DNA of 64,000 nucleotides from Minutocellus sp. GHC0000111 (taxonomy: Eukaryota), in assembly GCA_977018835.1 (NCBI GenBank), contig OZ361259.1, positions 4,340,001-4,404,000 on the forward strand, written 5' to 3'. Shown here piece by piece: positions 691 to 37,210 of the stretch. The position numbers were made by a program, and so were the translations under genes. The first letter of the stretch is position 1, and every line of letters starts with the position of its first letter. The notes under the pieces were generated by a model. That model made no database searches, was not told the DNA's origin, and saw nothing but the letters and a program-made list of their open reading frames with translations.

Positions 691-924
691 CGTTGTGGGT
701 ACCGCACGGTGGGGATGAGCTGGCGACGGTGGTTAGCAGCAGGCACTAAAACTGCATTCCTGTAGTGCCCAGTTTTTCTGCTGACCACCACCTTCGCCTC
801 CTCTCGTCTCAACTGACCAAGCCACAACCATCTGCGATTGCTGCCGTTGCAATTGCTAAGTCAGCTTACAGTACCGGCTCCCAGAGCCTGTCTCTCTCTC
901 TCTCTCAGCAGTTAGTTAGTTTTA
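691..924 (+). repeat. Direct repeat A1 (234 bp) of the YR retrotransposon
   Basis: Identical to 8871-9104 (offset 8180) except at 701/8881 (gggtAcc vs gggtGcc) and 909/9089 (cagCagt vs cagTagt). Confidence 0.97.
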
Positions 925-2560: not shown

Positions 2561-4495
2561 ATGGCTTCATCTTTCAACACCTGGAAGTCAGTCCTACTGG
2601 CACAAGAGACACCGGCCGGGGCCGACGCCGCCGTAGCTCGAGATTTCCAGAGACGTCTGTGAAACCGACCCCACGGCCGCTGTGGTCCAGAGCCATGCCC
2701 GAGCGATCCAGCAGCAAATCCGCGACGCCGAGGGTTTGTCCATGCTGGCCCACCATCCAGAAGGGAAAGTCGTGGTGATTCACCACGCCGTGGCTCAGGG
2801 AGGCACCACCATGCAGCCCGACCTCAGGTTGGGTGGGCTCCTCGGGATCGACGATGTAGCCCCGGCAATGTCGTTGGCCCAACCTAGCCTCTTGCGGCAC
2901 AAGGAGGTCCTAGCCCCATCGGTGGAAGCCATGCTGGGGGCACCGTCAGAAGCCGCCCTAACCGGTCTCACCCAGGAAGGCTCCAACACCCGCCACCGGA
3001 GTGCCTCCACGAAGTTTAAGTCCCTTGTGCTACTGCCACCTTCGATTCTGCAGAATGTTCTGGAAGAGCACGAGGCATCGCCTTGGGCCATCCTGTCCGC
3101 CATCAAACGTCGGCTGGATGAGGACGCCGGCAGCGACGACGCATCAGACAGCGGTGACGACGAGGGTCATGGCGCAGCAGGTCTTCGCTCCAATGAGGCT
3201 ATTCAACACGTCGTCAAGTGGCTGTGGTTCGTCGCCACGTCCGAGCAAGGTGACATCCCGGCCGTCAGCTTGTGCCCAACGACGGACCCGGCTCTCAAGA
3301 CATGCGCCCGTGAGATGCACGCTCGGTGCATCACTGGCGCCAGTGGCGACGGACCACCAGCCGGTGGCGCCCCGACCGACTCTGCAGTCACTGCCGCGGC
3401 CAACGCCATGACTAGGGCCGCGTCCGAAGCATCCTCCCTCACCGGCGCAGTCATGGCCTACACTGACAAGGTCGACAAGAAGCACTCAATGAATGGCGCC
3501 ATCCTCAAGGCCTGTGCCGCTTTCTGCCGGGTCTCGACCGAGCATGACGATGATGTAGCAGCGATCGACTCGAATCTTCCCGAAGGATTGAAAGCACTGC
3601 TGGAAGAGTCAAACCTCACGCAAGCAGCCGTCGGCCTCGAGCTGCATGTAAAGGGCAAGACAGGAGTCAGGACATCTCTCCAGGGCCTCACCACTTACGT
3701 CCGCCTCTTTGGCTTCGGAAAGAGCGACAAGAAAATCTACGATGGCTTCTCTGTCTTCGCCTTTAGCCCGGCAAACTCCAGCAGCAGCAGCAATGCGCCC
3801 CTGCATCTCGCCGCCTCTCAAAAGAAAGGACACACCTCGACTCAGGTGAAGGCTCTTCTGAAGCAGAACTACTGGTCTTCAACCGAGTGCGACGGTGCCA
3901 AACGTCACATCTCGGCCTTCGGCGCTGGCACTTCCTTCCTTGCCGGAGAGGATTCCGAGCGCCCGCTCGCTACGTCGCCAGGGTCCTCAGTCACATGAAG
4001 ACACACGAGGACCAGTGCCGCGACATCGCCGAGAGCCATGGCGAGAAGTTCTGGCTGGCGATGTTCCACAATGTTGACGCCTCCATCCATGCATTCTGGA
4101 AAGCTTGTCTCCGTTCCCCCGACGACGCCGGCAACGACCTCTCTTGCTTCTCAATGGCCGACGAGTCCAAAAAGACAATGAAGACTCAGAATCCTTTCGT
4201 CTACCCCAGCCACATCAAGCCCGTCCAATCGGCCGACGCTCCCACCCCTTCCTCGGATTCCGACTCCGACAAATCAGAGCCAAGAACCAGTCCGAAAAAG
4301 AAGCAAAAGACGGGCGGCGCCAGCGGCAGAGCCCACCAGTGCGAACACTTCGTCACGTTCGACATCAACTCCGGCAACTTTGCAAAACGGCATGGCAAGA
4401 AATCCGAGCCCTATGAGGACAGACCTGAAATTAATGGCTGTAAATTCTGCCCTCCATTCATCCTGACAGGTGTCTGCGGCGCCGGATCCTCGTGA
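2561..4495 (+). pseudogene. Gag-like ORF1 of the YR retrotransposon (frameshifted)
   Basis: ATG at 2561, then ORFs 2682..3998 and 3887..4495. The C-terminal Cys cluster GCKFCPPFILTGVC resembles the CCCH-type finger of DIRS-order Gag. It sits upstream of RT. Confidence 0.7.
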
Positions 4496-5198
4496 GTCGC
4501 ACGTCAAGAGGCCTCTTAAGGCATCGGAGAGAGGACCCGTCGAGCAGTGCGTCGAGAAATGCGATCGGAAGCACGAGGAGGCGGAGGAATGACGGATCGG
4601 GTGGGCACGGAGGCGTGGCCCACCCTCGGAGGATGCTGGAGAAACATCTCGGCCAGCCGGCCGAGCTCGTCCCTCCAAGCGCCGTCGAGTGCAGCCAGAT
4701 GCGTCGGCGTCAATCCGCCCCGGTGGCTCCAGCCGCCCAAGGTCATCCGGCACCCCAAAATCCGGCGTGTGCGGTCGCAACGACATCAGCAACCAATCCA
4801 GGCTCTCCGGTGCCCCTAACACCGGAGCAGAAGGCCGAGGCGTTAGCAGTGACCTTTGGTCGGGTCCTGGCCCCCCCCTAACACCAGCGGTGATGCCTGC
4901 GCCGACAACAGCATCTCAGGCTCTGGCTCCAGCACCACTAACGCTGGCGGTGCGGAAGCCACCGACAACCTCTTCGACCGGCTAGGCCAGCGAGAGAAGG
5001 ATCTCCTAGGTAAGCAGCCCCAACCCGAAGCACAGTCTCCCCCTGGTTCCCCTGCGCACAGCAAGGAAGTAGAACCGATGCGCCAAAATGGTAAGTGAGA
5101 CCAACAGGTGAAGAAACACCCACAACAAACGGGGCAGCCCAGCGCCCACAATGGGCCCACCACGGTCGGACAGACCCGCATGCTCGTGAACGTGCAGC

Positions 5199-7913
5199 AT
5201 GTGCATGTCTCACCTTTTTCTCGCCTTGTGCAATTCCACGTGGGAACTAGAGCCCATCTTCGATGTTTCCACCTCGGTGCAGCACGTCCGACGAGCAGTC
5301 GAGTTCCCGTCGGCCACACCGAAGCCCACGGAGTTCAGATTTGAGCTCTTGACGGAGGCCGCCGCTCACAATTGGTCGGTCCTCAAGAAATACGATCGTT
5401 CTCTGAGCAGGGCACTCGAGGCGCAGGGCGGGTCGCCACTCCAACCGGGATCGGAGTTCAGAGACCTGAGTCTTCTGGAGCCGATTCTTGGCCGGCACCC
5501 GCTGTGGCCCCGCTTCCGCTCCATTCTCGACAGTGGATCCGACTGGGCCCTCGATCCGGTGAGCGACGAAAGCAGACTGGACAGCGTGATAAAGAACATC
5601 GGCCGAGGCAACCACAAATCTGCCAGGGATAGGCCGGAGGTGCTCAAGGACCAAGTTCTCGACGACGTGACCCGCGGTTTCGCCCTCCCTCTGCCAGCAA
5701 AGGTCGCGCCCCTCATTCCTGGAGCGGAGGTGGCTCCGATGGGTTTGGCAGCCCGGAGGCACTCAAGGACCAAGTTCTCGACGATGTGACCCGCGGTTTC
5801 GCCCTCCCTCTGCCAGCAAAGGTCGCGCCCCTCATTCCTGGAGCGGAGGTGGCTCCGATGGGTTTGGCAGCACAGAACACGATCAGCGAGGCTGGCGAGA
5901 TCATGCCCAAGGACCGCCTGACTCACGACCAATCCTTCGAGATCGGTGCCGCACGGTCCGTCAACAACAGAGTGCGCATGGAGGACCACCAGCCAGTGGT
6001 GTTCGGCCATGCCCTCCGGCGAGTGATCCACTGCATCGCAGACGCCCGTCACAAGCATCCCCGTGCTCCCATCCTCCTGCAGAAGGTCGATTTCAAGGCT
6101 GCGTGTCGCCGGGCCCACTTGGCTCCCAGCAAGGCCGTCAAAACGATCACCACCCTGGATGGCATTGCCCTCATGTCCCTCCGGCTGACTTTCGGCGGCC
6201 GCCCTTGCCCGAGCGAATGGTGCAACACATCCGAATCGGCGGCCGACCTGGCCAGGGCCCTCCTGCAATGCTCGGACTGGGACCCGTCAGAGCTCCATGG
6301 CCCCCAGCAGAAGCACTTGGGTCGCCCCAAGGTGGAGGGCGACGACGTGCCGTTCGCGCCGGCCCTGGACATGATCGCAACCCTTCCCGACAACAAGGAT
6401 GGCATCGTCGAGCCGCACATCGACGACCTCATCGCCGCAGCCCCTGACCTGGGCGACAACAAGGATCGGACATCCGCTGCCACCCTCCTCGCCATCCACG
6501 CGCTTGCTTGGCCGACCGGCATCCGATTGCGAGCCACTGCCCAGAGATGACCTTGCCTCCATCAAGAAGCTGCTCGCCGAGGGGACGCCTTCCGAAGCAC
6601 TGTGTCTCTTGGGGTGGGATGCTGACACCCGGCGGCTCCTACTGAGGCTCCCTTGGAGCAAGTGCCTGGCCTGGCGCGATGACATGCTTCGGCTCCTCAG
6701 AGCCCGCGGCGCCACCAGATCAGAGCTGGACACCTTGGTCGGAAGGCTAAACCACGTCGGACACATCATTCCAGCCGCACGACACTTCCTCAGCCGCCTT
6801 CGGGATCGGCTCTGGAAGGCCCGCCGCCACGGCCGCCAACGGTTCGACTCTGAGGATGCAGAAGACCTCAACCTGTGGCTCCGCTTCCTCCGAAGGGCCG
6901 CCGATGGCATGAGCATGAACCTCCTCACGCACCGTTGCCCCACCCACGAGCACATAAGTGACGCCTGCGAGCACGGCATCGGCGGATGGTCCTCATCCGG
7001 CAGAGCGTGGAGATTTGCCCTCCCCGAGGAGCCATGGGGCCGGTTCACCCTCAACTACCTGGAATTCCTCGCCGCCGTCATCGGCCCATGGATCGACCAC
7101 ATCGAGGGCAACCTACCAACCCTCTCCTGCGCACTGTCGGGGACCGACAGCACCACGGCCGAGGGATGGCTCAGGAAGTCGAACTTCGTGTCTCACGGCG
7201 AGAGGGATGCCGACGTAGCGGTCAAGCTGGCCACGGCGCGGAAACTAGCCGACATGCTCATCGAGACCAATGCCATGCTGTGCTCACAGTGGTTCCAGGG
7301 GAAGCGCAATCCGGAGGCCGACTCTCTTTCTCGTGATGCCGATCTCTCTGATGCTGACCTCACGAAATTGCTTCTATCATCTCCCGAATGTCAGCTTCCC
7401 TCAAATTTCAGGATTGCACCACCACCCAACGAGATTACTTCCTGGATTGTCTCGCAGGCGCGGACGCTGCCCGTCAGGAAGCAGTTGTTACAACGGCCAC
7501 TGCCGAGAAGCACGCTCTCGCGTGGAGCCGCTGGACTGAGTTCCTGCAGCTCATCGGGACCGGGGACGACGTCTTCCTCGACAAGGTGTCACCCCGAGAC
7601 CGAACAGTCATTCTCGGCGCCTTTGCCCACGCCGTCCGACAGGCCAGCTTTTCGGGGCCGAAGTTTTCGCGACTGGCTGCGTCGACAGTCCGAGACACCG
7701 TCTCACATGTGTGCTCGTCCTTCCGGCACAACCAGCGCAGGGACCCAGGGAAAGACGGCATCGGCCAGCCTTCATTCCTTCTACAGCGGCAGTTCCGAGG
7801 ACACAGCCAGTCCGACCCGGCCGAGCGGCCGGAGAAGGCGATCACCTGCCGGCTCCTCCGAGAGATCGCCTCCGTCAGGGAAACGGAAGAGGACCATGCA
7901 GTCGGGCAACTAG
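5199..7913 (+). pseudogene. Reverse transcriptase + RNase H (DIRS-type), frameshifted and point-mutated
   Basis: RT motifs RLTHDQS, KVDFKAA[C]RR, LRLTFGGRPCP, [H]IDD (6416-6427, expected YxDD) and LLGW. RNase H motifs SDACEHGIGG, NYLEFLAA, DSTTAEGW and N-x-ADSLSR. Split over ORFs 5199..5789, 5786..6550 and 6399..7913. Confidence 0.92.
5634..5871 (+). repeat. 119-bp tandem duplication inside the RT ORF (frameshifting)
   Basis: Copy 1 is 5634-5752 and copy 2 is 5753-5871. They differ at ggagg-TG-ctc vs ggagg-CA-ctc and at gaCgtg vs gaTgtg. Confidence 0.97.
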
Positions 7914-8676
7914 CCGTCGGCGCCTTCTTCTTCGCGATGAGGTCTCTTGCGAACACTCCAGAGTCAGCGGTGAGCGCAGGACCAAGCTGCTCCGCCTCCG
8001 CAACATCCAGTTCTACCGCGGCCGACGGCGCATGTGTCACAACGACCGGTCCCTCCTCTCAGCAGACTCTGTCTCCGTCACCTTTGAGTTCCAGAAGAAC
8101 GACGAGCGTGACGTCACGATTACGCAACACTGCACCCACGACGCCACCCTCTGCCCAGTTCGAGCTTGGGCTGCCCTTGTGAAACGAGTCCAAGGGCACC
8201 CTAGTACCAACAGCGATGCGCCGGTAAATGCCTTCGTGGTCAACGGCGTATTAAAATACATTCCTGCCACCCGAATAGTTGACAAGATCCGAGCGTCGGC
8301 CACAGTGATTGGAGAGGACGTCCTGGGCTGCCATCCCTCTGAATTCGGATCACACACTCCATTCGCAGCGGAGCAGCAATGATGGCAATGTATCTAAATG
8401 ATGTTCCCACGTACACAATCATGCTGGTAGGGCGGTGGTCCAGTGACGCCTTCCTCAAGTACATCCGTCGCCAGGTCCAAGAATTTACATCCGGAGTCTC
8501 TCCACACGCATGATCCAACGAGGTTCCTTTTCTTCAACGTGCCCCACGCACACTCGACGAGCCATCGCGAAGACCCAAGGACCCCAAATTGCCGCCAATC
8601 CTTCGCCGGCATCAACAGCATTGGCCGAAATGCCGGCTTCGGTACTCCAATGCCCCCCTTCGCCCTGTTCACCTAA
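7388..8676 (+). pseudogene. Tyrosine recombinase of the retrotransposon (frameshifted)
   Basis: Motifs AFFFAMRS-CE[H]S, FEFQKND, LCPVRAW, HSIRSGAA (8355-), GRWSSDAFLKYIR with the catalytic Tyr at 8460-8462. It overlaps the RNase H ORF, as is usual in DIRS-order elements. Confidence 0.92.
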
Positions 8677-8761
8677 GCACGACACACATCATTGGCCGAT
8701 CTGTGCTGCGCACGGAAAGGAGGAGGGGGAGAGGGACCTCACCCTCTAAGAAGTTTCATTT

Positions 8762-8779
8762 ACCGCCAATGCCAGCTCC
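8762..8779 (+). repeat. Repeat B1 core (18 bp), matching B2 remnant at 9116-9133
   Basis: accgccaatgccagctcc occurs at 8762 and at 9116, on either side of A2, giving the B1-A2-B2 arrangement. B2 appears truncated. Confidence 0.75.
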
Positions 8780-8870
8780 AGTTCACGTAGTTAAACTGCA
8801 TTTCATGTTCTACTAAGTTGCATAGAGTTGGGAGAATCAGCGGAGGGAGGCACTGTGTTCGATGCATCAT

Positions 8871-9104
8871 CGTTGTGGGTGCCGCACGGTGGGGATGAGC
8901 TGGCGACGGTGGTTAGCAGCAGGCACTAAAACTGCATTCCTGTAGTGCCCAGTTTTTCTGCTGACCACCACCTTCGCCTCCTCTCGTCTCAACTGACCAA
9001 GCCACAACCATCTGCGATTGCTGCCGTTGCAATTGCTAAGTCAGCTTACAGTACCGGCTCCCAGAGCCTGTCTCTCTCTCTCTCTCAGTAGTTAGTTAGT
9101 TTTA
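8871..9104 (+). repeat. Direct repeat A2 (234 bp)
   Basis: Copy of 691-924 with two mismatches. Confidence 0.97.
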
Positions 9105-9223
9105 AATTCCCTCAAACCGCCAATGCCAGCTCCTCGGCTGGGGTGCTGGGCTTTGCACTTGGGTGCGGTCGAGTGAGTCGAGGAGTCGAGTCGAGTGAAG
9201 TCCCAACGTCCCAACCGCGCCTG

Positions 9224-9428
9224 TAGCCATGTGTAAGTTGTGGGTCAAAACCCGAAAAATTGTGGGTCAAAACCCACCGGTATTTTGTGGGTTAGTGGGC
9301 TACTAGTACATGGTTTGGACCAACCGACGGCTCCACTGACGCATGCATGAGCCAGCGGGCCAAAAATTTGTGGGGAGTTGTGGGTTTTTAGTCGAATGAG
9401 TCAAAAACCCACAACTTACACATGGCTA
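9224..9428. mobile_element. hAT-type MITE (205 bp)
   Basis: Perfect 22-bp TIRs: tagccatgtgtaagttgtgggt (9224-9245) and acccacaacttacacatggcta (9407-9428). 8-bp TSD cgcgcctg at 9216-9223 and 9429-9436. Several internal ttgtggg subterminal repeats. Confidence 0.93.
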
Positions 9429-9618
9429 CGCGCCTGCCGAAAAGCAACGACAAAAAGTCCATGAGTTCTCGATGCAGTTCGGCGCACTTGGCGTGCTACG
9501 CATTGCGATGTATAAAACGATGGAACATTGCCGTCTACGAAGGAAACGGCCCCGGTAAAGGCCTGGTCGGAAACTGCTGCTGCTGACCTCACTTCTTGTC
9601 GGAGATGCGACTGCCTTC

Positions 9619-10422
9619 TTGACCAATCCATCTGGGGCTGCATCGGCAGAGACACGTGCAGCACTTGCAAAGAACACATTCAAGCATACTAGTACTCGTC
9701 GCACATATGTGTTTGCAGACAGGAACTTGAACGATGATGGCAATGCCAAAAAGAGCGACAAAAGCAAAGGACTGGAGCCCATCGTTGAAAAGCTTTTGAG
9801 TCCATTTGCGATGATTCTAGCCAGAATTGGTACGTCTGAAGAAGAGGCACTTCGACGAGATATTGCTGCCGCAGAGGCCAGACTCAAAGTCAAGAAAGCC
9901 GAAATGGAACGAATGGAATCTCAAGCTCAACTTTTGGGGGCGGGGTTTACAGCAACTTTAGTTGCAGTTGCGGTGCTTTCTTTCATTGATTCGACCATGA
10001 GTTTTCCAACGGAACGGGGCGCAATGGCAAGAGGTGATTCGGGAACTACTACAAAGAAAGGGGTGTTTCGCATGGACAAGAAGACCAATTCTCGAGATAA
10101 GTCGTCTCAATTTTCTGCGCCTGTTTCGGCGATTATATCGGGGGCAATAGGAGTTGTTGGTGCAAACATTTTGTTGCGGTCCAAAGTATCGTCAGAGGCA
10201 CAGCCTGAACTGGACGAGGCCCTCGCTATAAGTAATATTGATTCCAACGCCTCGTCAAAAACCTTCATTCCAACCGCTAGCAACTCGGCATCAGACAACA
10301 AATCGAGAGAGATCACTGATTTATCTCTCGAAATCGATGATATTTTCAGTACGATGGAGAAGCTCCAAGCGGAAGCATGCGATGATGAGGAAAATAAAAA
10401 TGCCAGAGAGCGGGGGAAGTAA
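9619..10422 (+). CDS. Hypothetical membrane protein (coiled coil + two hydrophobic segments); start uncertain
   Basis: 267-aa ORF with a coiled-coil-like segment and TM-like LLGAGFTATLVAVAVLSFI and VSAIISGAIGVVGANILL. No recognised family. Confidence 0.55.
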   Translation: MTNPSGAASAETRAALAKNTFKHTSTRRTYVFADRNLNDDGNAKKSDKSKGLEPIVEKLLSPFAMILARIGTSEEEALRRDIAAAEARLKVKKAEMERMESQAQLLGAGFTATLVAVAVLSFIDSTMSFPTERGAMARGDSGTTTKKGVFRMDKKTNSRDKSSQFSAPVSAIISGAIGVVGANILLRSKVSSEAQPELDEALAISNIDSNASSKTFIPTASNSASDNKSREITDLSLEIDDIFSTMEKLQAEACDDEENKNARERGK

Positions 10423-10533
10423 AGTTCTAATATACTCAGTAACAAGTGCAATAGCCTCCCTCTATCAAAGAATAGGTCCCGTGTAGCTTATTCTTACTAT
10501 CCTGAGTAAATATTTGGGATTGCATTCGTTCCA

Positions 10534-11806
10534 TTACACTACTGGAGGAACGCTCATTTGCAGACCCGAAAGAAGCCCCGGATTCTTGAAACCAAGCAAC
10601 AGACATATTGGAATCGTCCGCACAACAGGTTTGTACCATGCTACCAGAGCGATTGCAAGCCACAAATAGCGAAGTTTTAGCTTTGGTTTCTTCTGTTCAA
10701 TTCCAAAGCCCATCATGCTCCGATATTCAGGTGAGGCATTGTCAACGGCAAGGCTCCATTTCCGCTTCATCTGGTAGCTACTGCCGTATTGGGGACCGAA
10801 TAACCATCCGACCAACGCGCCGGCAATAAAACCTCCGACGTGGCCTGCATTACTAATTCCTGGCGTCATAGAGCCAAAAATTATCAACCAGATCATATTT
10901 TTGAATATGGATGCTGAGGCTGCCTTGTTCCCCATTCGATTGAGCATAATGAATATTAACCCCTGAAGTCCACATATTCCCGAAGACGCTCCTAGGCATA
11001 AGCCCAACGCCGCTGGACCGGATGATGCCACCGAAGAATGGGCCAGATTCCCAGCAACAACCGAGGCCAAATAAGTTGATAAATATAACAACCGGCCGAG
11101 GCCTTCCTCTACAAAACTCGGGATGCTCCACAAATACCTCATATTAAAGGCCAAGTGCAAGGCACTACCGTGTAGAAACCCAGAGGTGATAAGGCGATGA
11201 GGCTGAATAGAGCTCAGAACTGTTTGGTGCGCAAAATCCATTGTGAAGGCACCAACGCTTGATGCCGCAATGTAGGGCTGACCAAATGTACTGGCGCGGC
11301 CCATGATCGTCAAGGAAGATTCACCGAGGACCATTCTTCGAGCGAGATCAGACCCCTTCAGTGCGACCGCCCCTCCTGCCCTTGATCTTGATAAAATGCT
11401 GCTCAATATCGGTGCATAATTAGCGGCACTTAGGATTTGAAGCAAAAAGAAGGCAATATTGAGAGCAACAAGAATCTTCTGGATGCTTAGACTCGATAAT
11501 ATTCCTCGTCCTCGACCACGTGTCAAGCCCATTCGCTTCCGTCGGAAATATTCATCGTCAAAACCGACTGGACCACGAGCATAGATTGCTATATTCCGTC
11601 GCTTGGACCTATTATCGGAGACGGATGGCACAAAGCTTCTAGAATATTGGCGGCTCAAATCCAAGGCTGATGAAGGAATACAATTTTTGCTTTGACATGA
11701 TAGATGTAAAAAAGATCCTCCTCTAGTCGAAAGATCCTCCTCTAGTCGGCGCCTCAAAGCCCTCACAAAAAGAAATATTGCTGAGGAGAAATACTATCGA
11801 TGCCAT
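10534..11806 (-). pseudogene. Rhomboid-family intramembrane serine protease, probably plastid-targeted; N-terminus frameshifted by a 19-bp duplication
   Basis: Motifs HRLITSGFLHGSALHLAFNM, GASSGICG and SNAGHVGG. The signal-like MASIVFLLSNISFCEG-F (ATG 11806) is out of frame only because of the tandem duplication at 11711-11748. Confidence 0.8.
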
Positions 11807-13211
11807 AAATAGAGCAGGTAATAAACCGCTGCATTTCACTCGGCATCGATGTTTTTTTGCAAAATCGCCTGAGTTCTGATGGTGCCTTTGGACCTGACTA
11901 GTTCTTCGTGAGACGTCTCGTCTTGTCTTGGCAATTGCGACGGCATCCCGTTTCGCGCTCTCTATGTCCTCTGGGAAAATGATGGGTGACACAAAGAGAT
12001 CGTCTGAAACCATTAAGTGCAAAACTTGACGATAAGTGGCCGCTGGCGGCAATTGTCCTGATGCAAACCATGGCATTTTGAGGCATGTGGAAGCAGATAT
12101 TCGATTCAGAGGGTCCAGCGACACAGTTGCATTCGCCACCTCCTTCAAATTTTGACATGTCCCTATCCTCGGCACACTTGCTTCGATGCCCTGAAATTCC
12201 CTAAGGTCAAAACGAATCTTACCAAAATCGGGCAAGGATGAAGCGCCTGGCCAATTCTTTTCCGATGGAGTGCCGAGGATGTCAAATATCCGATTCAATT
12301 GGTCGATGTCATTCCGTCCAGGGAACGTCGTCCGAAGAGTGAGTAGCTCGCAAAGGATTAGACCTGCGCCCCAAATGTCCTGAGAGGGATGAGCAAATAT
12401 CTCGCCAAGAAAAATTTCTGGGGCTCGGTAATTGATCGCGCAAAGCGCATGCGATGGGAGCTTCTCGCTGTCGTTGCCCTGATGGCTGCTTCTCTCCATT
12501 TCGCTGCCTTGTCGAAGTGAAGGACAAGCCGTGGCCAGTCCAAAATCACAAAGTTGAATACGCCCAATGGAACTAATCATAAAATTTGCAGGATTCACGT
12601 CGCCGTGGATAACACCGTGTTCATGACAATGCTGCAGAGCCGACATCATGTCTCGAAATATCGCCTTGACTGCGTCGTCTGGTATCATCCCACCGCAGGC
12701 ATCGCCCTCTCGAATGTTGTATCGTCGGCGCTGGATGGCCGGAGGGACAATAGGGAAATGCCAGTGATAGCCCCATCCCGCGACTGAGACCAGACTGTGA
12801 TGGATAAGCAGCGAGCAGCGGGACGATGCAAGAGTGCTTTCCGGATGCCAACGATCGGAGGGCTGCCAACTCGGCAAATGCCTCTCTGCTCAGCTGTGGG
12901 GGCTTGGCACTGCTGCTGTTGCTGGTTGTGTTTGCAGTGATGCCATCATCGGTACCAGTACCAGAATGAGCACCAGTCGCAGCAAATCCCCACGAGCTCG
13001 CCAGTGACGTGCCCTCCACGCTGGAAGCAAGGACGGCATTCCGTATCGTCTTGACAGCAGCGTAGCTCCACGATCCTCCTGTTTCAACACCGCCGATGGA
13101 GGTGTTGTTGCCGGTGCTACTAGGCCGATACAGGGCGATTGAGACCTCTCCAAAGCTCCCCGATGCTATGGATGTGTTCCCATACCTATTGTAATCGATT
13201 TCTTCAATCAT
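11723..13211 (-). pseudogene. CDK-like (CMGC) protein kinase, frameshift near 12745
   Basis: N-lobe in ORF 12621..13277 (ASGSFGEV, AAVK, ELAALR). C-lobe in ORF 11723..12877 (HGDVNPAN, DFGLA, YRAPE, DIWGAG, FPGRNDIDQLNRIFDILGTP). Confidence 0.82.
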
Positions 13212-13392
13212 GGCGAAAAAGGTTGCAAAATAATACGCATCCATGCGGTACCGGTGTACCTGTACCGGTGCCGTCATTCAATTCAACAATGAGATTGCTT
13301 AACGGTTGTTACCAATCTCCCTGAAACGAATTTACAATCGAGCGTGACGATGACGCATCAAGTTGCCATGTATGCCAGATCAGCTATCATTA

Positions 13393-13474
13393 GCATTGCC
13401 TCGCCTCGTCAGTTGCGCTTGCTACGTATGTAGCTTTGATCATCGACGCATTGCCTCGCCTCGTCAGTTGCGCT
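13393..13474 (+). repeat. 27-bp direct repeat in a divergent intergenic region
   Basis: gcattgcctcgcctcgtcagttgcgct at 13393-13419 and 13448-13474. Confidence 0.85.
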
Positions 13475-13538
13475 AGCTACGAGCTCGTACTAGCTAGTAC
13501 GTATGCGTAGATAGATCAGCACATTTCTACTCGCAAAC

Positions 13539-14470
13539 ATGCCCTCTTTTCGCACGCAAGTAGTTTTGCTTTATCAGGCATTTGCATTGACGAGAGCATT
13601 CTCGGACATCACCTGTTAGGGTTGTGGCGCCCCACAAAAGCTCCCAGGAAGTTACGTGAAGGGATTTACACGGTGGTCCGTGGAGAAGCTTTCCAGTGAA
13701 AGCCCAACTCTCCAAAGGCTGCCAACGGAGGGAGATGATAGCTTTTTGTGAACCCCACTTCGACGGAGGAAGTGTGGTGGCCAATGGACATTTCTAAACT
13801 GCAATCCCGTCCATGTTTGGATGTGCTGATACAAGGTGGGCAGCCCAAGTACGCAATGGCGGGTCTGACGGTGCGAGTTCCCGAAGAAGCATCGAGCGAC
13901 GGAAATGATTGGAGGAATTATGGATTAAATTCGCAGCCCCTTGCTGGGCAGTGGACGACGTTTGCCTTTGCCGTGGAGGGAGGATTTAGAGTTGAATGCT
14001 TTGTAGGCACGAGTGATGCTGACGAAGGAACAAAAGCCAATGACGCAAATAAGGAAGACGACAGCACAACGCTTTATGAGAGAATATTCCCCGGTGATCT
14101 GGGTGCGTTGAATGATCGACCAAGTGCCCATGCGATGTTTGCAGCTCAACGAACAAGCGATGCGTTGGAATCACTTGGCGTATTTCTATCGGGCATTGAT
14201 GATACATCTCCTTTGAGCGATGGATTTCATTTGGTGTCATATCCTCTTACTGATGACTGGATAGAGCTTCCGAAACTAAAGAGTGAAAAGGGATACAAGC
14301 TGCTTTGCGTGGCGACTGCAGAACCAGATGCCGAAAAGCTCATCGAGATGGACGAAGGGCTTGTCCAAATGACGGCTACAAGTGTCATGAAGGTTGATGT
14401 TTTGCCTACGGCTTCTGGGTCCGAGAGCGAATACTTACCAGCAAGTTATAAGCCTCTGTACAAGAAATAA
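13539..14470 (+). pseudogene. Hypothetical, probably plastid-targeted protein with a nonsense codon and a frameshift
   Basis: ATG 13539 gives MPSFRTQVVLLYQAFALTRA-F (signal + Phe). There is an in-frame TAG at 13617, the frame stays open to ~13745, then shifts into ORF 13748..14470. Confidence 0.6.
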
Positions 14471-15476
14471 AGTGTCAACGAAGCTGGCTTGAAAATTCTG
14501 AAATGTCTAGATCTATACAGATAGATGTTTGTTTTTGATGTAGTCAAGAGTAAACATTCTCATAAGTACGTACAAAAGTAGATCTACATGTAGATCAACA
14601 AAAGCAAGCAACACCCAACTTTTGGTTTTTGAGATCAAAAGAGAGTTCGTCCCCGAATTGTTGCCGCCTGCTGCCTTAATTTTCCTCCTGCCGGTAGATC
14701 TAGAGGAGCTCCTCTTGATCTAGATCTACGTGCGTCCACAATGAACCAACAGTAATATTTTTAAGCAAGAAAGCGCTTGCTGCATACACATGCTCAGCTA
14801 CACACACATGTGATTAGAGATTCTTTAATCATGTATGGATGGGCTGAAAAGCGAGAGAGACCGAAGACTTCAGCTTTTTGACATTTGCGACTGAGCTCAT
14901 AACCCATTTTGGACGGCGGACGTCTTGCCGCCGACCGAGACCGCACAAGTTGACACCCCTGTCGATCGTGTCCTCAGAAAACTCTGCCCGTCCATCTCGC
15001 CTGCCTGCCATCCATCTCCGCCTGGTGAACGACCATTACTGGTAGATCTACCTCTTCAAGATTGAACAGACCAACACTGCATTGAGTGATAATGATTTCT
15101 CTATATTTGTGGTATTTTATTTGTACAGTACGATCAATATATTCGTACAATAAATTAGCAATGATTTTTTTTTTTTTTTTTTGCGCATTTGATTGATTGA
15201 TAGCGATGATTGATTGCGTTGATCATAATAATGGTAGCAGATTGTAGCGTGTGATTTGTAGTAGTGGGTGTTGCAACTGACCAATTGGAAGGAGGATCGA
15301 TGATGAATGATGGTTTCTACCTCCGGCGGTCTCTATAGCAACTAGCTGTGATATGTTCGTGTGATCTAGAAAATAAATGATGAGAATGAAGGTGATGGCA
15401 TCCTCAAAACTGGTTAGCGTAGCTAGCGTAGATATGTATAGCTTCGACGTTGCCGGGCATGCCGATGCCCAGCTAG

Positions 15477-16535: not shown

Positions 16536-17015
16536 TTGGGGAATGGACGGAGAAAATGGGTGATGCCGGAAGATTCACCGGCTCCTTGCTTTGAATCACA
16601 AAATCAACGTGAACCACGAGATTTTGGCGCGATGCCTGCGCGATGCCGAAGAACAAGCAGCTGCTTCCTCAGATGCCGTCTCACCGGGTGTCACCTCTGA
16701 CATCGGCGACTCTTTTAGATACACAAAATCGAAAGAAGACCCGAACCAGCAGAACGAGCGCCGAACGAGCGCCGAACGAGCGTTTTGAGTCAGAAAGAAA
16801 TGCAAGAAATCCCTGAAAGACGCCGTCCGATTTTGTGAGGCCTGAACCGGACGACGGAAATGACGACACTCATGATTGAGCGAATGCATGCGCATAGGCT
16901 AGCGCATGCACGGTGATGTGATGCAAGCGGCCGATTCATTGACTCATACTGGCTTCGCTCTTGATACTTTTCGAGTTGTAAATTTAGAGATAGCACTCTG
17001 ACCCCTTCTTTCACC

Positions 17016-18287: not shown

Positions 18288-18605
18288 GATACAGAAATGA
18301 TAAGCGTCTTCACTAACTTACTTTTGGGTTCTCTTTCGCGATCTATATCTTCGCTATCTAATGGCGTGCTTTTAATGCATTACATGTACATGTATTGAGA
18401 TCTACATGTACGGCAATGACTTGCATGGTGGTTCATACCGCGAGTGGCTGGCTGGGTGGCATGGAGCAATTCTTGCAAGGCGCAAGGCCGTCACGAAAAT
18501 AACATTTTCAGGTCAATGGTATTTTCCATAAAATTCTGCGAAAACGCCAAGTCATCATGCCAATGCAGGCAGGTCACAACCCGAGCGTATTAGACGGCTT
18601 GACAA

Positions 18606-19706: not shown

Positions 19707-19912
19707 TGATGCTGTGGAGGATTATTGTCCAGAGTACCGGCCACGGTGAAATGAGTGATTAGATGTGCGAAAGCTAAGATACGTAAATGTCTTTTATGTG
19801 CCACAATGCACCTGTAGCTTGATATTAGCTTTATATTTCGCTTACGAGAATATATATACAAATTCGCAAGCGTGATCCGAGTTCAAAACAAACCCAACCT
19901 CACCAAGTCTAG

Positions 19913-21610: not shown

Positions 21611-22042
21611 GGTTGATGGCTACCTAGGTACTGTATCGGAACAAAAGTATCCAAGATGTGACGTTTTGTGCGCGGGTTTTCTCGGCTCCATTCACTTTGG
21701 CGAGGAGAGCTCGTAGAAGATTTAACAGCGAATGGACCTCGCGCGCGCCTCTATCCTGCCTGGCCGGCCGCGGCCTCTCGATCTCGGCCGTCCACTTCTC
21801 TTGCTACCGCTACCGGCAACCCAACACCGCTGGTCGGACTGCCACCTCCTCCTCCGCTTATCCATCTCGCGCACATTTCGTTAGATCCATTACTGGTGTG
21901 GTTGAAGGGCTCGAGAAGTCGTTTGGTTGATGTATCTACATACAATTGTATCTGAAGCCAATTAATTTGTATTAGTGCGTGGAGCTTCGCATTCGATCAG
22001 TCATCGTGGTGCGGCCCTCAAGTCATTCAACCCATTGAACCC

Positions 22043-30757: not shown

Positions 30758-32275
30758 GATGATTGATGATGACGATGCAATGTTCGTTGTTGTTGTTGTT
30801 GTTCAAATGATAAGGCTATGGCGTCGTTTGTTTTTGTGTTGTTATGGTTGATGATGATATGGTACAGATTGCATGGAATGATTGTGATATTTTGCTAGCA
30901 GAAATGAATATGTAGGGAAGTCAAGCGCCGATCAATCGATAAGGATGGATTGGGCAGCGCCTTTTGGCTCGACGCAGGCTTCCGATGTAGGTAGTTGACA
31001 GGAAATTCGAGGAAGGGGTCGGTCCGACTGAGATAGAAAGACCCTTGACTCGATGAGAAACAAACAATTTTTGTGGATATGTGCAGGGTTGGTTCTATCG
31101 GGCGGTGAGTGTGCGGGGTTGCGTTAGCGAAGACTCGGGAAGAAGTCTACCTACAACAACCGCTCCGATGATGAATGTATTGACCGCCAATAATAATAAT
31201 GATGAATGTGAAAGGTGTGTGTGACTGGAGCACCCCGAGTGACTGGACTGACGGGGAGGGGTGCGCAGGATTTTGGGTTTGCGTTGGGATTTCGTTTCCC
31301 CTTCGACTGATCAAGAATACCGGCGGATGAACGGACGAATCGACAAAAGCTCACACAGCGCAGCGAACAATGAAGGCACGGAGTCAGGCGGTAGGGGGGT
31401 CTCCAGCGCAGGAACCTCTTCGCCTGAGGGATTGAGTCTCTTGCCGTACCTTCAAGATTGACCTTGCGCCTTGCCTTGACGCCTCTTTTTCTGCGCTGGA
31501 CGACGACAAGGCCTTTTTGCTTTCCGCGTGTCAAGCGCACGATTTCGAAATGACGATTAAGGTGTCAGAAAGAAACTATGAGTCACCGCGCGGAAATTCT
31601 GTCGAAGCCGCGAGAAGATGGTGTCGGTCGAGAGAGGGAGAAACGAGTGAGAATCAACGGCGCGACGGGAACGCCAAGATGGCAAGAGGGATCGCAGATG
31701 CGTGAGATATGGTTGAATCAATGGCATATCGTGCCAGCGGTACCGAAAGTTCAGCGAAAATGGCACATCATGGCCTCGCAAATGGCACAACAAAAGTGCC
31801 GTCGTCTATCCAAGAAGGAAGAACAAAAATGACTCCTGCCTGCGGCGCGGGCCAATATCTTGGGCAAGCCAAGAATAAAAGCGATGCCACCAGAGCTATT
31901 CCATGGAGCAGATCCATGAGACACAATGCACAATCGCTCGTACGAAATCTCCAACCATGACGCAACGTTCGCTCGCATGGATGCCCGTTACATTCCCACT
32001 TTTGTTGCCTGCGCGCCAACGGAACTTTCATCCAAGATCGACTCGAAGATATCGTTGCAATTTTCACGGCGTTCTCGTCCATTCCCACCACATTCACGAC
32101 CTCCACATCGTTGCGAACACACATGCAATAAACGGCATGGGGCCAATGGCAATGGTCAAACAATTGCACGGAATTCTCACCTGATCGATCTTCCATTCCA
32201 ACTCCGCAAAAGTGCGGGGCGGCACAAACGAGCATGCCAACACGCGCGAGGGTACGTGTGCTGTATGACAAGAAG

Positions 32276-32776
32276 ATGGCCAATACCACCACCGAAGCGG
32301 CAGGACATCATGGCGCGAATTTGGCCTCATCGGCCTCGGACGATCCATTTCTTTCTCGAGCCGATCTCCTTTTGGCTGATGCCACCGAAGCCCTCAAGAC
32401 CAACCAAGCCATGATGGCGAACCTCGCCAAAAAGAGCAACGAGAAGGATGATGCCATTGCCAAACTTCGCCAAGAAATAGCTTCACTCAAGGCCGAGAAC
32501 CGCGTTCTGCGTGAGGGACGCAACCACACTGGTGGCAGTGGAGGCTACCGCGGCGGTGGCCAGCAGAACGGCGCCGGCCACTTCCCAGGCCAAGGTCCTA
32601 ACCTCAACCGCCAGGAGAAGCGGGAACTGCAGTCGATCCTCCCCAGAGGCCATTGTTGCCACACGTGCGGCTATTCGTCCAACCACCCCAGCTTTGAATG
32701 CACTTGCAAAGGGCCCAACCACGTTGACAACGCCACCAAGTACAATCCTTGCGGTGGTAGCTCGCGTCGTAACTGA
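32276..32776 (+). pseudogene. Copia gag C-terminal fragment
   Basis: Coiled coil followed by H[C]CHTCGY..NH.S.EC..K...H...AT..N..GGS, the CoDi-type Gag end. Confidence 0.8.
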
Positions 32777-32889
32777 GCGGGAGGGACGGTGGATGTTAAT
32801 CAGTGTAAAATAGAGGATAGCATGTCTAAATCCACCTCCTCCCCGCCTTCGTTAGCTTTTCTTACGTCAAAAAGCAAACCTCCAACTCA

Positions 32890-35800
32890 AGAGCCAATCG
32901 TCCTCGCAGCAGATGCTGGAACGACGGGACATTTTGTCCAGAAGCCCCAATGACTGTCGTGCGATGGCCCTGTTTTCAACGTCCAACAGACAGCAATTCC
33001 TATCAGCGTCACCCTTCCGGATAGTAGCACAATGACGAACACCCACGAGGCCACGCTTCGCCTCCCTGGGGTTTCCCCATCGGCTAGCAAGGCCTATATT
33101 TTCAACAACATGGCATCATCGCTCCTGTCGATTGGGCAGCTGTGTGACGATGGATGTGTTGCCACTTTCGATAAGGATTCGGTAGTCATCGCCAAGGACA
33201 ACGCCGTCATTTTGCAAGGTAAACGAGACCCCTCAACGAAATTGTGGATGGTAGATCTTAATTGCTCGCCCACCATGTCGCCGCTCCCCGGCCCCAACGT
33301 CATCCAATGTGCTGCCAACGCCGCAATTGCCCAGGAGACGGTTCCGGAACGTGTAGCCTTTTTACATTGGTGCGCTGGCAGTCCTCAGCTATCTACCTGG
33401 TGCAAAGCAATCGATGCGGGATTTTATAGATCTTGGCCAGGCCTCACATCAAAGCTTGTACGCAAGCACATGCCACAGTCGATACCGATGATTAAAGGTC
33501 ACATAGACCAGCAGCGCAAGAACATCAGGTCGACCAAGCCCAAACGGTCGATGGCTACGCCAAAATCTCTCCCTGGGGTGGACGAAACCGAGCAGGATCT
33601 CCACCCGGCACAACACCAACAGCGCACCAACTATGTCTTTGCTGATTGTCATGACATAACGGGCCAGATCTTCTCAGATCAGCCCGGCCGTTTCTTGGTA
33701 TCGTCTATTTCTGGCCACCAGCACACAATGGTCGTCTATGACTATGACTCCAACAGCATCTTGGCCGAACCAATGAAAAGCCGATCGGGAACGGAAATGC
33801 GCCGAGCGTACCAAACTATTTTCGAATACCTCTCCAAGCGAGGATTTCGCCCAAAATTGCAACGATTGGATAATGAAGTGAGTCGAGAGCTGAAGGGGTT
33901 CATGGAAGAAAAGGATGTAGATTTTCAATTGACCCCAACGCACTCCCACCGCCGAAATGCGGCCGAACGAGCCATTCGAACCTTTAAGAATCATTTCATT
34001 GCGATTCTCTGTGGTGCCGATCCCGACTTTCCCCTCATCTTGTGGGATAAATTGCTGGAGCAGGCGGTAATGACCCTCAATTTCCTGAGAGCATCCGAAG
34101 TCAACACTCGACTATCAGCGTACGAGCAACTCAATGGCGGCTTTGATTTCAATCGCACGCCTCTCGGCCCCCTCGGATGCAAGGTCATCTTTCACGAGGT
34201 GCCCTCGGCACGCGGCTCTTGGTCCCCGCATGGCGTTGATGGGTACTATGTCGGTCCAGCCATGGAACACTACCGGTGTTACAAGGTTTGGATTGAGGAA
34301 ACTCGGGCGGAACGCACTGGTAACACACTCGTCTGGCTCCCCAAAATGATTCCGGTACCCAAAACGTCGTCGGCCGATGCAGCAATAGTCGCAGCTCATG
34401 AACTCCTGCACGCTCTACAGAATCCACATCCAGCGGCACCCCTTGCTCCCCTTCGAGACGAGCATCGTCAAGCTTTAGAAAAGCTCTCCGAGATATTCAA
34501 CAGCGTGACCCCAGCAGAATCTGCCACCTCCGCCTCTGATGAGACGATGCAGACAACCGCAGCTCCGAGGGTGCTGGAGAACGATGACGACTCCCAACGA
34601 TTCCGCCTCGGTACCATCGTCGCCAAAGTGTTTGGAGATCGCAATTACAAGGGTAGAGTCGTTGCATTTGACAAGAAGTATAAGCACTACAAAATCAAAT
34701 ACGAGGACGACGACGTAGAAGAGATGAACGAGACTGAAGTAGGCCGTCACCTTGTCTCCAACCCCAACGCTCCGTTACCTCAGCCCCAGCAACCTCCGAG
34801 GGTGGCAAAATCCTCCACATATGATGCAGCCACCACTAAAAGCCGTCGATCACGTCGATCCAACGCGCCACCTCGCTCGTCAGGTTCTTCCAACTACTAC
34901 AATCCTTTGGCTGCAGTAGACGAGCCCAACGGCGACGATGATGACAATCATGACGACGATGCAACCGTCGTAACATCCAATCAAAGTTCCAATGCCCCCA
35001 CCTCCCGTCGGCAACGTAAACGCAAGTCTCCAACGATCGATACCACTCCAACATTACCAGCTCCAGCAAAATCGACAAGCAAGTCCAAAAACCATCGACC
35101 GCCAAACCATCTCGACGACGATCATACCGTCAGCGAGGGTACATTCCACATCGGAACCCTCCCCCACGGCCATCATCTCGTCGTAGTGCCCACCACGTGG
35201 CCAACATGGCAGCTTTCTCGCCTTTACCAAACCTCCAACACTTTGCTAACGCCGTCGTCCATCCCGATGCTGGTGCAATGCTTGAACACCGCGACCTCCT
35301 CAAAACGAACATGAGGGACCAATTCATTCAAGCAAACATCGATGAAATTGGACGGCTAACGGACGGCCGAGTTGGAAACAGTGCTAGCATTCCCTCCAAC
35401 ACAATGGCTTTCGTCCACTGGTCCGAACTGCCTCGGGGGGGGAAAGCCACATGCCTCCGCATTGTCGCCGACTGTCGCTCCCATAAACCAAATCCCAATC
35501 GAGTTCGATGGACTGCAGGAGGCGACAAAATTCATTACCCTGGCACAGTCTCGACCCCGACCGCTGAAATGTTGACTGCAAAGTTACTTTTCAACAGCGT
35601 CATCTCTACAGACAACCAACGCTCGTTTCATGGGAATTGATATCAGTGACTTCTATCTCAATAGCACCATGCCAGAGCCAGAATGGATGTGGGCGCCAGT
35701 AGCTCTCATCCCCGACGAAGTCATGGAAGCCTACGACCTCCACGACAAAGTAAAGAATGGTCGAGCATTGGGTCAGAATCGATGGCGGAATGTATGGATT

Positions 35801-36977
35801 ACCCCAGGCAGGGCGCCTAGCCTACGATCAACTTGTCAAGCATCTCAAACCCCATGGCTATTTCCCTTGCAAGCGCACTGCCGGCCTTTGGAGGCACAAA
35901 ACCCGCCCAATTACCTTTTGCCTAACCGTTGACGATTTTGGAGTAAAGTATGTCGGGGGAAAGAGCATGCAGACCATCTCATTCAGGCCCTCAACTCCAA
36001 GTATAAGATCACTACCGATTGGGAAGGCCGACTTTATTGTGGTGTTCAACTCGAGTGGAACTACGAGGCCAAATGGGTGGATCTATCTATGCCTAACTAC
36101 GTCAAGGAGATGCGCCACAAGTTCCAACACGACCGCCCCTCACAGCCCGAGCATGCGCCATATCGATGGAATCGTCCGACGTATGGCCCGGGACCCCAGC
36201 TGCCAGAACCGGAAGACGACTCACCACCACTCGACGCCAAAGGCATCAACGAAATTCAACAGGTGGTGGGCAGCTCCTTGCACTGTGGTCGAGCAATTGA
36301 TTCAACAATTTTACCGGCGCTCAATAGCATCTCAGCGGAACAATCAAAAGCTACCGAGCGCACTCGACAAGATGCCAAGAAGCTTCTAGATTACCTTGCA
36401 ACCCATCCCGACGCAGTCATTCGATACGTCAAGTCAGACATGATCCTACATGTGCACATGGCGACGCCTCCTACTTATCAGCCCCGAAATCAAGAAGCAA
36501 GCTCGGAGAGGGTGCACTTCTACCTAAGCTCCCGACCTAAGCACCCGCACCGCCAGCCTGACTCAAGTGATCCCATGCCACCAATGAATGGAGCCATCCT
36601 CGTCAATGCCAATATCATCAAGCATGTAATGTCCTCTCAGCCGCTGAAGCCGAATTGGGAGGATTATTTTTCAACATGAAAGATGCAGTACCAATCCGGG
36701 CAGCACTAGAAGAAATGGGTCACCCGCAGCCCCCTACTGCTATCGTCGTTGACAACTCTACAGCATCTGGAATCGCCAATAAAACCGTCAAGCAAAGACG
36801 ATCTAAGGCTATGGACATGAGATTCTGCTGGGTCCAAGATCGCACATAGAGCAACGACAATTCCAGGTGTGCTGGCGGAAAGGAGCGCAAAATTTGGCCG
36901 ATTATTTTACAAAGCACCATCCCGCCCGCTACCATGTCGACATGCGACCAGTCTACTTACATGTAGATTCCAATTAG
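32890..36977 (+). pseudogene. Copia pol (PR-IN-Tudor-like-RT-RH), multiple frameshifts
   Basis: PR: ADAGTTGHF. IN: SDQPGRF, QRLDNE, HRRNAAERAIRTFKNHFI. RT: GMYGLPQAG, VDDFGVKY. RH: VDNSTA, SKAMDMRF, NLADYFTKHH. Confidence 0.92.
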
Positions 36978-37025
36978 GACTCTACATGTAGATTCAATGG
37001 CACTAGTCATTGATCTGCGAGGGTG

Positions 37026-37210
37026 TGTTGACACCGTGGGATACGTACGTACGTATACAAACGTACGGTACGTACGGTGATCAGACCACTGACTCAGTGC
37101 CCTCTCCTGACCGTTGATCCATGGGCCAACGACATCTCCGATGGCCCATTTTTCATCTACGTAGGTCTACTAGCTATATCTATCTAGCTTAGCTTTAGGA
37201 CCTCTTAGCA
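37026..37210 (+). repeat. Putative 3' LTR (~185 bp, TG...CA)
   Basis: Starts TGTTG directly after the PPT and ends TTAGCA, where peptidase coding sequence resumes. There is no second copy to confirm the end. Confidence 0.65.

What the first reader, a model, noticed from the sequence alone, without database searches (positions are those of the whole stretch)
5632..6640. 'Reverse RIP': TpA->CpA/TpG hypermutation of the YR retrotransposon, a candidate repeat-targeted adenine mutagenesis system
Seen: no TpA dinucleotide between 5632 and 6640 (~1 kb, read by eye), and the 254-aa RT ORF has no Tyr. Positions that are normally Tyr read His (CAY) or Cys (TGY): RT YxDD->HIDD (cac 6416), AYRR->ACRR (tgt 6104), YR RSCEY->CEH (cac 7954), RNase H LYSQW->LCSQW. 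Known: fungal RIP converts CpA/TpG to TpA, the opposite direction, and CpG decay also runs GC->AT. Inference: A->G occurs at 5'-TA on both strands, as expected from deamination of adenine (or a modified adenine) in DNA. It destroys TE catalytic residues and would act as genome defence. I know of no published description but could not search.
Basis: partly seen in the sequence, partly recalled or inferred. Interest (0 to 1): 0.95.

Follow-up and report, generated by a model that had tools for sequence, protein, structure and literature searches.

The report
TA-erasing hypermutation of a diatom retrotransposon
Dozens of copies of a retrotransposon in what is likely a diatom genome have each, independently, had almost every T-A step followed by a pyrimidine rewritten to T-G or C-A while neighbouring genes are spared, likely the work of a DNA adenine deaminase used as genome defence, a signature I found in print only for one unrelated alga.

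Summary
There is no TA in 5632-6639 (31 expected). The stretch lies in an 8.4-kb tyrosine-recombinase retrotransposon with about 57 copies. At the same ancestral Tyr column different copies read His or Cys. Outgroups point to a TA ancestor at 22 of 38 CA/TG columns and to CG alone at 0. TG and CA outcomes are equal (262:243), copies agree no more than chance, and neighbouring sites are not strand-coordinated. So mutation happened in DNA, after insertion, one site at a time. The target is T[A]Y: RTAY is 1 of 50 expected in the element core against 0.87 of expectation in host genes, while YTAR equals the host level. Illumina contigs from other studies agree. A copia element nearby is partly hit. 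The process is not categorically new: a 2026 preprint reports TpA->TpG/CpA hypermutation in Bigelowiella natans, and this scan found it before in other, mostly diatom, genomes, with the TAY motif. The enzyme is not identified; an adenine deaminase is my best reading (0.55).

The parts
5632..6639 (.). TA-free kilobase: the most saturated part of the RT region
2601..8190 (.). Hypermutated core of the element: RTAY 1 of 50.3 expected, mixed TA sites 30 of 100.7, YTAR 18 of 50.3 (host level)
691..924 (+). Left direct repeat (A1) of the retrotransposon; differs from the right copy at 2 sites, both TA versus TG/CA in a TAY context
8871..9104 (+). Right direct repeat (A2), 234 nt, 99% identical to A1
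8762..8779 (+). 18-nt repeat that recurs at 9116-9133, just after A2: possible remnant of the B1/B2 split repeat
2561..4589 (+). Gag-like ORF by position (no family hit that passes a cut-off), broken by frameshifts; cluster of 57 members
5205..7913 (+). RT-RNase H ORF in three frame pieces (5205-5756, 5753-6514, 6507-7910); YxDD Tyr read as His at 6416
5631..5868 (+). 119-nt tandem duplication not seen in the other copies; one GTAC-type site reads TG in the first half (5641) and CA in the second (5760)
7388..8500 (+). Tyrosine recombinase ORF in pieces (identified from motifs, recalled); putative catalytic Tyr codon intact at 8460
32100..37030 (+). Copia-type retrotransposon, partly hit: RTAY o/e 0.45; His or Cys at 5 of 24 Tyr-majority columns

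Best explanation
Copies of this retrotransposon have been mutated independently, on both DNA strands, from A:T to G:C at the motif T[A]Y, likely after insertion and likely by a host adenine deaminase of the TadA/ADAT2 type that would be guided to silenced transposon chromatin as a genome defence. Shown: the spectrum, the motif, strand symmetry, independence of copies, lack of strand coordination and sparing of host genes. Inferred: A is deaminated to hypoxanthine, read as G at replication and fixed. Each event destroys its own target, so a site ends as TG or CA and almost never CG. Events add up one by one over many generations until sites with TAY on both strands (RTAY) are gone, half of the sites with TAY on one strand remain, and YTAR sites are untouched. 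Tyr codons (TAY) are therefore the preferred casualty. Inferred, untested: targeting follows a chromatin domain rather than repeat pairing, because the repeated ends of the element are hit far less than its interior.
For:: 60 of 75 variants seen in 3 or more copies are TA/CA/TG toggles. Outgroups fit TA at 22 of 38 CA/TG columns, CG alone at 0, both at 1, neither at 5, and 10 had no outgroup. No Arg (CG state) occurs at 17 His/Cys columns. TG 262, CA 243, TA 75 of 599 observations at 32 sites; share mutated on a TAY strand 133/310 and 611/1468, on a TAR strand 54/338 and 2/132; TA kept in 8/463 observations at RTAY sites and 67/136 at mixed sites. Outside TA sites A>G is 42/15157 against A>C 5/15322 and A>T 4/13691, and it follows the same 3'-pyrimidine rule (A[A]Y 18/741, C[A]Y 15/2353, G[A]Y 7/3936; N[A]R 2/8127). 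Agreement between copies is 0.576 against 0.608 expected if independent (220 pairs); no excess of same-direction neighbours; host genes RTAY 0.87 and 0.73. TA o/e 0.16 here against a median of 0.555 in 48 related loci. Preprint: the same TpA transitions arose de novo in mutation-accumulation lines of B. natans, and the authors propose ADAT2. ABE7.10 RNA off-targets show a TAM consensus (PMC8845244, passage).
Against: No enzyme was found or could be sought: no genome is held. The 5' order outside T is A > C > G, which fits the WA hotspot of polymerase eta (PMC7884765, passages) at least as well as a TadA. The TadA consensus I saw (TAM) matches TAC but not TAT and includes TAA, which is spared here. 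The data cannot say which base of the pair is attacked: T[A]Y equals R[T]A on the other strand. Copy data are protein fragments, so silent changes are unseen, and sites where the window has CA/TG were kept only if 2 or more copies varied, which inflates the T[A]Y rates. That all copies come from one assembly is inferred from recurring contig lengths. The host-gene control rests on composition only. Other repeat-like stretches of the window (50900-53530, 53530-59400) show no RTAY loss (0.96, 1.01), and the copia keeps Tyr at 17 of 24 columns.
Confidence: 0.55

Rival explanations
1. Same targeted DNA hypermutation, but made by an error-prone polymerase (eta or iota type) that inserts G opposite T during repair synthesis in silenced chromatin.
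For: Polymerase eta mutates WA hotspots, TA to TG among them (PMC7884765, abstract and passages). A[A]Y is the second target here (18/741). Copies carry many small tandem duplications, which suggests repair synthesis.
Against: A[A]R is 0/1246 and T[A]Y is over 15 times A[A]Y; transversions at A are about 0.03%. Patch synthesis should give same-strand clusters, and none is seen under 200 nt (119/221 and 245/464 against nulls of 0.52 and 0.51).
Confidence: 0.2
2. The lesion is on the T (R[T]A), for example oxidation by a TET/JBP-type dioxygenase to a base that mispairs with G, or it is on an already modified adenine.
For: T[A]Y and R[T]A are the same base pair, so every count fits. Thymine-oxidising enzymes in algae are recalled knowledge and come from no call.
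Against: No call shows such an enzyme or base in this organism. The near-complete conversion (8 of 463 left) needs a strongly miscoding product; hypoxanthine is one (established knowledge).
Confidence: 0.13
3. RNA editing (ADAR-like) of the element's transcript before reverse transcription, or deamination of single-stranded cDNA during transposition.
For: ADAR favours U before the edited A (preprint discussion). The element is held in RNA-labelled runs.
Against: This predicts one strand only and strand-coordinated bursts. TG 262 and CA 243 are equal and neighbours are uncoordinated. The two halves of a tandem duplication and the two terminal repeats of one copy differ at TA sites. The copia is hit too.
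Confidence: 0.04
4. A genome-wide AT-to-GC bias or GC-biased gene conversion among repeats, visible only where selection is off.
For: The element is GC-rich (0.61-0.65). No read-level polymorphism control for host genes was obtained.
Against: Host genes keep RTAY (389 RTAY to 168 YTAR against 1 to 18 in the core; Fisher P = 1e-8), synonymous and intergenic sites included. Other A contexts are nearly untouched. Conversion would homogenise copies, but they are independent.
Confidence: 0.04
5. CpG decay (CG to TG/CA) or a family that naturally uses His/Cys, or a sequencing artefact.
For: CG ancestors also give CA/TG pairs; some CpG decay is present (24/6421).
Against: Outgroups fit TA at 22 columns and CG alone at 0. 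CpG o/e is 0.92. The nearest outgroup cluster (9 members) keeps Tyr and differs at 10 columns, none Tyr to His/Cys. Illumina contigs X3 (6066-6625) and X4 (6066-6470) have 12 and 6 differences, all listed, none at 6104 or 6416.
Confidence: 0.02

Closest known systems
TpA-restricted hypermutation of integrated viral DNA in Bigelowiella natans (Mettrop et al., bioRxiv 10.64898/2026.01.13.699255; parts 1-4 of 5 of the text read, supplements not seen)
   Same: A>G and T>C at TpA on both strands, giving TpG/CpA; confined to foreign or selfish DNA; TpA-poor coding sequences there are enriched for RT and DDE domains; ADAT2 proposed, untested.
   Different: Here the host is likely a diatom (stramenopile), not a rhizarian. 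The target is a multicopy retrotransposon driven to near saturation, not a single-copy giant-virus insert. A 3'-pyrimidine rule and weak A[A]Y/C[A]Y activity are measured here; the preprint's main text names only TpA. Here the evidence is comparative; there it is de novo mutations.
Fungal repeat-induced point mutation (RIP; PMC2621366, start of abstract in the listing)
   Same: Transposon-focused, dinucleotide-specific transition hypermutation that leaves copies independently degraded.
   Different: Opposite direction: RIP makes C:G to T:A at CpA. Here C>T at CpA is 1/2468. The repeated termini are the least hit part, which argues against a pairing trigger. Diatoms have DNMT4 relatives of unknown function (PMC9998398, passages), but a cytosine methyltransferase does not explain A:T to G:C.
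TadA-derived adenine base editors and ADAT2/3
   Same: A to G with T on the 5' side (TAM consensus of ABE7.10 RNA off-targets; PMC8845244, passage).
   Different: Engineered or tRNA-directed; TAA is spared and TAT is hit here; no enzyme identified here.
Polymerase eta WA mutagenesis in somatic hypermutation (PMC7884765, abstract and passages)
   Same: A>G with 5' T over 5' A.
   Different: Here AA is hit only before a pyrimidine and at least 15 times less than TA; no same-strand clusters.
Ngaro retrotransposons (DIRS order) of Cafeteria burkhardae (PMC8547959, 4 passages)
   Same: Gag-like, RT-RNase H, YR order; direct rather than inverted terminal repeats.
   Different: The B repeat is only an 18-nt match here; no Pfam hit for RT or YR.

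Membership tests
Bigelowiella-type TpA hypermutation | Almost only A:T>G:C transitions, at TpA, on both strands | tested here: met
Bigelowiella-type TpA hypermutation | Confined to foreign/selfish DNA, host genes spared | tested here: met
   (composition, one window only); a read-level control was not obtained
Bigelowiella-type TpA hypermutation | Ongoing, about 1000-fold raised de novo rate, in a subset of lines | not testable with these tools
   needs mutation-accumulation lines
Bigelowiella-type TpA hypermutation | ADAT2-like candidate enzyme in the genome | not testable with these tools
   no genome held
Fungal RIP | C:G>T:A at CpA | tested here: not met
   C>T at CpA 1/2468; TpA is lost, not gained
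Fungal RIP | Triggered by sequence duplication | tested here: inconclusive
   The high-copy element is saturated and the copia is partly hit, but the element's repeated ends are the least hit part; genome-wide copy numbers not available
ADAR/APOBEC-type editing of retroelement intermediates | One-strand, coordinated hypermutation per copy | tested here: not met
Polymerase eta WA mutagenesis | A>G at both TA and AA, in same-strand patches | tested here: inconclusive
   A[A]Y raised (18/741) but A[A]R 0/1246; no clustering
Ngaro/DIRS-order retrotransposon | RT-RNase H ORF | tested here: met
   Atlas features of the relative P0007 match RVT_1 clusters at 0.95; YxDD column; Pfam and PDB gave no hit
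Ngaro/DIRS-order retrotransposon | Tyrosine recombinase ORF downstream | tested here: inconclusive
   Motifs read by eye (recalled); the C-terminal Tyr is kept in 17 of 17 related loci where the motif was read; no Pfam hit
Ngaro/DIRS-order retrotransposon | Split direct repeats A1-ORFs-B1A2B2 | tested here: inconclusive
   A1/A2 234 nt; B only 18 nt

The most novel reading that the evidence does not exclude
Diatoms carry a dedicated natural DNA adenine deaminase system with a T[A]Y motif that is steered to transposon chromatin and erases Tyr codons of mobile elements. It is shared with Bigelowiella, so it would be an ancient genome defence of the SAR supergroup, the mirror image of fungal RIP, and a source of natural DNA A-to-G editors.
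Probability: 0.45. Interest if true: 0.9.

Novelty: new variant of a known kind. Interest (0 to 1): 0.72.

Why it matters
Targeted A-to-G mutation of chromosomal DNA is, in the papers I could search, described for one alga only, from a single-copy viral insert and without an enzyme. This case moves it to a likely diatom and to ordinary retrotransposons. It shows that the process can run to near completion across dozens of copies, and it gives a precise motif (T[A]Y, with weak A[A]Y and C[A]Y activity) against which candidate enzymes can be tested. Diatoms have working knockouts (PMC9998398), so the mechanism becomes testable. It would also bias transposon dating, GC content and repeat annotation in these genomes.

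Tried and rejected
No whole genome was held, so copy number against TpA loss and a search for the enzyme stay open. DNA of the individual copies was not obtained; the copy analysis uses protein fragments. A read-level polymorphism control for host genes (9500-29300) was not obtained. Same-genome copies of the copia integrase were not obtained; outgroups were used instead. Pfam found no RT, RNase H or YR family in the window pieces or in intact relatives, and PDB gave 0 hits. The Atlas search of a host protein was uninformative (0.77). Viral contigs held no copia relative. PMC9399415 had nothing on TadA context. P0012 and P0035 show 3 His/Cys at 10 Tyr-rich columns: too weak to call a further case. 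Rows dropped before counts: P0096 and P0110 (the window itself), P0092 (same contig as P0003), columns 5762-5868 (tandem duplicate), columns near gaps or with under 70% flank identity, columns with fewer than 5 copies. Only 15 of 31 members of one RT cluster and 15 of 57 of the gag cluster were listed. One search showed 40 of 61 rows. Rejected: CpG decay, natural His/Cys, RNA-level editing, base-calling artefact (see rivals).

Full report
Observation. TA is absent from 5632-6639, the longest such gap in the window (1010 nt, next 377). 31.4 are expected from composition and 18.5 at the host TA o/e of 0.59 (P = 9e-9, uncorrected).

Setting. The stretch lies in an element bounded by 234-nt direct repeats at 691-924 and 8871-9104. 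It holds a gag-like ORF, an RT-RNase H ORF and a recombinase-like ORF, all frameshifted. The Atlas links the intact relative P0007 to RVT_1 clusters (0.95), and its nearest cluster is commonly Bacillariophyta, with phylum known for 4 members. Pfam and PDB gave no hit. The layout resembles Ngaro elements (PMC8547959, 4 passages), but the B repeat is only an 18-nt match. The flanking genes are eukaryotic and several carry diatom-type plastid signals (motif recalled), so the host is likely a diatom. The runs that hold the element are mostly labelled sponge or marine metagenome or coded organisms. No genome was held.

Copies. A homolog search and cluster look-ups gave 62 members in 8 RT clusters and 57 in the gag cluster, nearly all on contigs of 0.1-5.3 Mb. 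Two proteins are identical to the window and sit on a 1,573,675-nt contig, so I infer one assembly. I analysed 56 protein fragments, 1234 columns; one locus can give several fragments. At the YxDD column 36 other copies read His 29, Cys 6, Tyr 1. Of 75 variants seen in 3 or more copies, 48 are CA/TG swaps, 12 need a TA, 4 need a CG and 11 are other; many of the last 15 are private to the window's copy. CA/TG pairs could come from CG, so I polarised them with two outgroups at 67% identity: 22 of 38 columns fit TA, 0 fit CG alone, 1 fits both, 5 fit neither and 10 had no outgroup. Arg never appears at 17 His/Cys columns. The nearest outgroup cluster (9 members) differs at only 10 columns, none Tyr to His/Cys.

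Level and timing. At 32 sites where all three states can be told apart, TG is 262, CA 243 and TA 75 of 599. Pairs of copies agree at 0.576, against 0.608 expected if independent; 3 of 220 pairs were identical. Neighbouring sites in one copy take the same direction no more than in shuffles: 119/221, 245/464, 451/972 and 765/1548, with a slight deficit at 200-600 nt (5 of 300 shuffles as low). The terminal repeats differ at 2 sites, both TA against TG/CA. In the 119-nt tandem duplicate one site reads TG in one half and CA in the other; its two other differences are not TA-related. This points to DNA-level, post-insertion, one-at-a-time mutation (inference).

Motif. The share mutated is 133/310 and 611/1468 on strands reading TAY, 54/338 on TAR strands opposite a TAY, and 2/132 at YTAR. 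TA survives in 8/463 observations at 24 RTAY sites and 67/136 at 8 mixed sites. These rates are conditional on how sites were picked. An independent count in the window's DNA agrees: in 2601-8190 RTAY is 1 of 50.3 expected, while YTAR is 0.36 of expectation, the same as in host genes (0.36, 0.35). Away from TA sites A>G keeps the 3'-pyrimidine rule: A[A]Y 18/741, C[A]Y 15/2353, G[A]Y 7/3936, against 0/1246, 1/2954 and 1/3927 before a purine. C>T at CpA, the RIP target, is 1/2468.

Targeting. RTAY o/e is 0.87 and 0.73 in the two gene-rich stretches, 1.33 in the left flank, 0.37 at 925-2600, 0.78 at 8191-8870, 0.45 in the copia, 0.57 at 59400-64000, and 0.96-1.01 in 50900-59400. So the element's interior is saturated, its ends much less, and host genes are spared. 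The copia has His or Cys at 5 of 24 Tyr-majority columns, Tyr at 17, Phe at 1 and Trp at 1; 5 of the 8 differences among its 3 gag copies fit TA toggles. Among 48 related loci from metagenomes TA o/e has a median of 0.555, against 0.16 here. One locus, L022, has 0.26 with RTAY 0.05 and Tyr to His/Cys changes: a second genome with the signature. Five of 137 copia relatives have His/Cys at 30% or more of the Tyr columns: leads only.

Artefact test. Contigs of 4 of 4 runs from four studies were laid on 5750-8860. The 40 rows shown (of 61) make 30 sites: 9 CA/TG double swaps, 11 single changes that make or remove a TA, and 10 others. Some singles may be halves of pairs whose partner row was hidden. 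Illumina contigs X3 and X4 span 6104 and 6416; all their 12 and 6 differences are listed and none falls there.

Mechanism. Best reading (0.55): a TadA/ADAT2-type deaminase acts on adenine in T[A]Y in silenced transposon DNA, and hypoxanthine is read as G. The purity of the transitions, the two-sided motif and the lack of clustering favour a base-modifying enzyme over patch repair. Against it: no enzyme was seen, the 5' order (T >> A > C > G) also fits polymerase eta (PMC7884765), the TadA consensus I saw is TAM (PMC8845244), and the attacked base could be the T. I put about 0.9 on targeted DNA hypermutation whatever the enzyme. 'Defence' is plausible but untested. The YxDD Tyr is lost in 36 of 37 copies, but the recombinase's putative catalytic Tyr survives in this copy (contigs of X1 and X4 show it changed), and frameshifts alone would inactivate this copy.

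Prior art. One search found Mettrop et al. (bioRxiv 10.64898/2026.01.13.699255; parts 1-4 of 5 read). In B. natans, 230 of 231 de novo mutations in two viral inserts are A>G or T>C, all at TpA; TpA-poor coding sequences are enriched for RT and DDE domains; ADAT2 is proposed. Its main text has no 'diatom', 'stramenopile' or 'trinucleotide'. Its supplements, which I could not see, may show the 3' base. Searches listed no report for diatoms; subscription journals are mostly outside the library. This scan already noted the same signature in four windows of other genomes, two with the TAY motif; those are unchecked notes, and I saw them after my own counts.

Verdict. Real and well supported as a mutational signature; a new variant (likely diatom host, multicopy retrotransposons, T[A]Y motif, near saturation) of a process so far found in one preprint; mechanism open. 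Interest 0.72.

Noticed in passing
window 6502, 7484, 7943, 8351, 8379, 8497, 8528, 8708: The window's copy has 8 extra bits of 2-4 nt against other copies, all next to a like sequence. In 43 copies there are 19 rows of in-frame one-residue insertions against 6 of deletions, most repeating a neighbour. Micro-duplication may accompany the TpA process. At 8708 the duplicated 4-nt unit held a TA and reads TG in one half and CA in the other.
   Followed up: partly
L022:1040-2464: A distant relative (42% identity) in another sample with TA o/e 0.26, RTAY o/e 0.05 and Tyr to His/Cys changes: a second genome with the signature.
   Followed up: partly
proteins P0255, P0217, P0274, P0208, P0196: Copia integrase relatives from unnamed sources with His/Cys at 38-75% of Tyr-majority columns.
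   Followed up: no
window 9223-9429: Short element with terminal inverted repeats (MITE-like) just right of the retrotransposon.
   Followed up: no
window 34600-34750: The copia pol ORF carries a PTM/DIR17-like Tudor domain after the integrase (Pfam PF21743, E 1e-11), a possible chromatin reader.
   Followed up: no
window 50912-59400: An 873-aa ORF without a Pfam family, next to an AT-rich, intron-poor block with 34-nt inverted repeats: probably another mobile element; not depleted of RTAY.
   Followed up: no
window 5750-8860, runs X3, X4: RNA-labelled runs of 2016 and 2018 hold the element at about the same depth profile as DNA runs; transcription is not shown, DNA carry-over is possible.
   Followed up: no
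window 59400-64000: RTAY o/e 0.57, lower than in the other gene-rich stretches; cause not examined.
   Followed up: no
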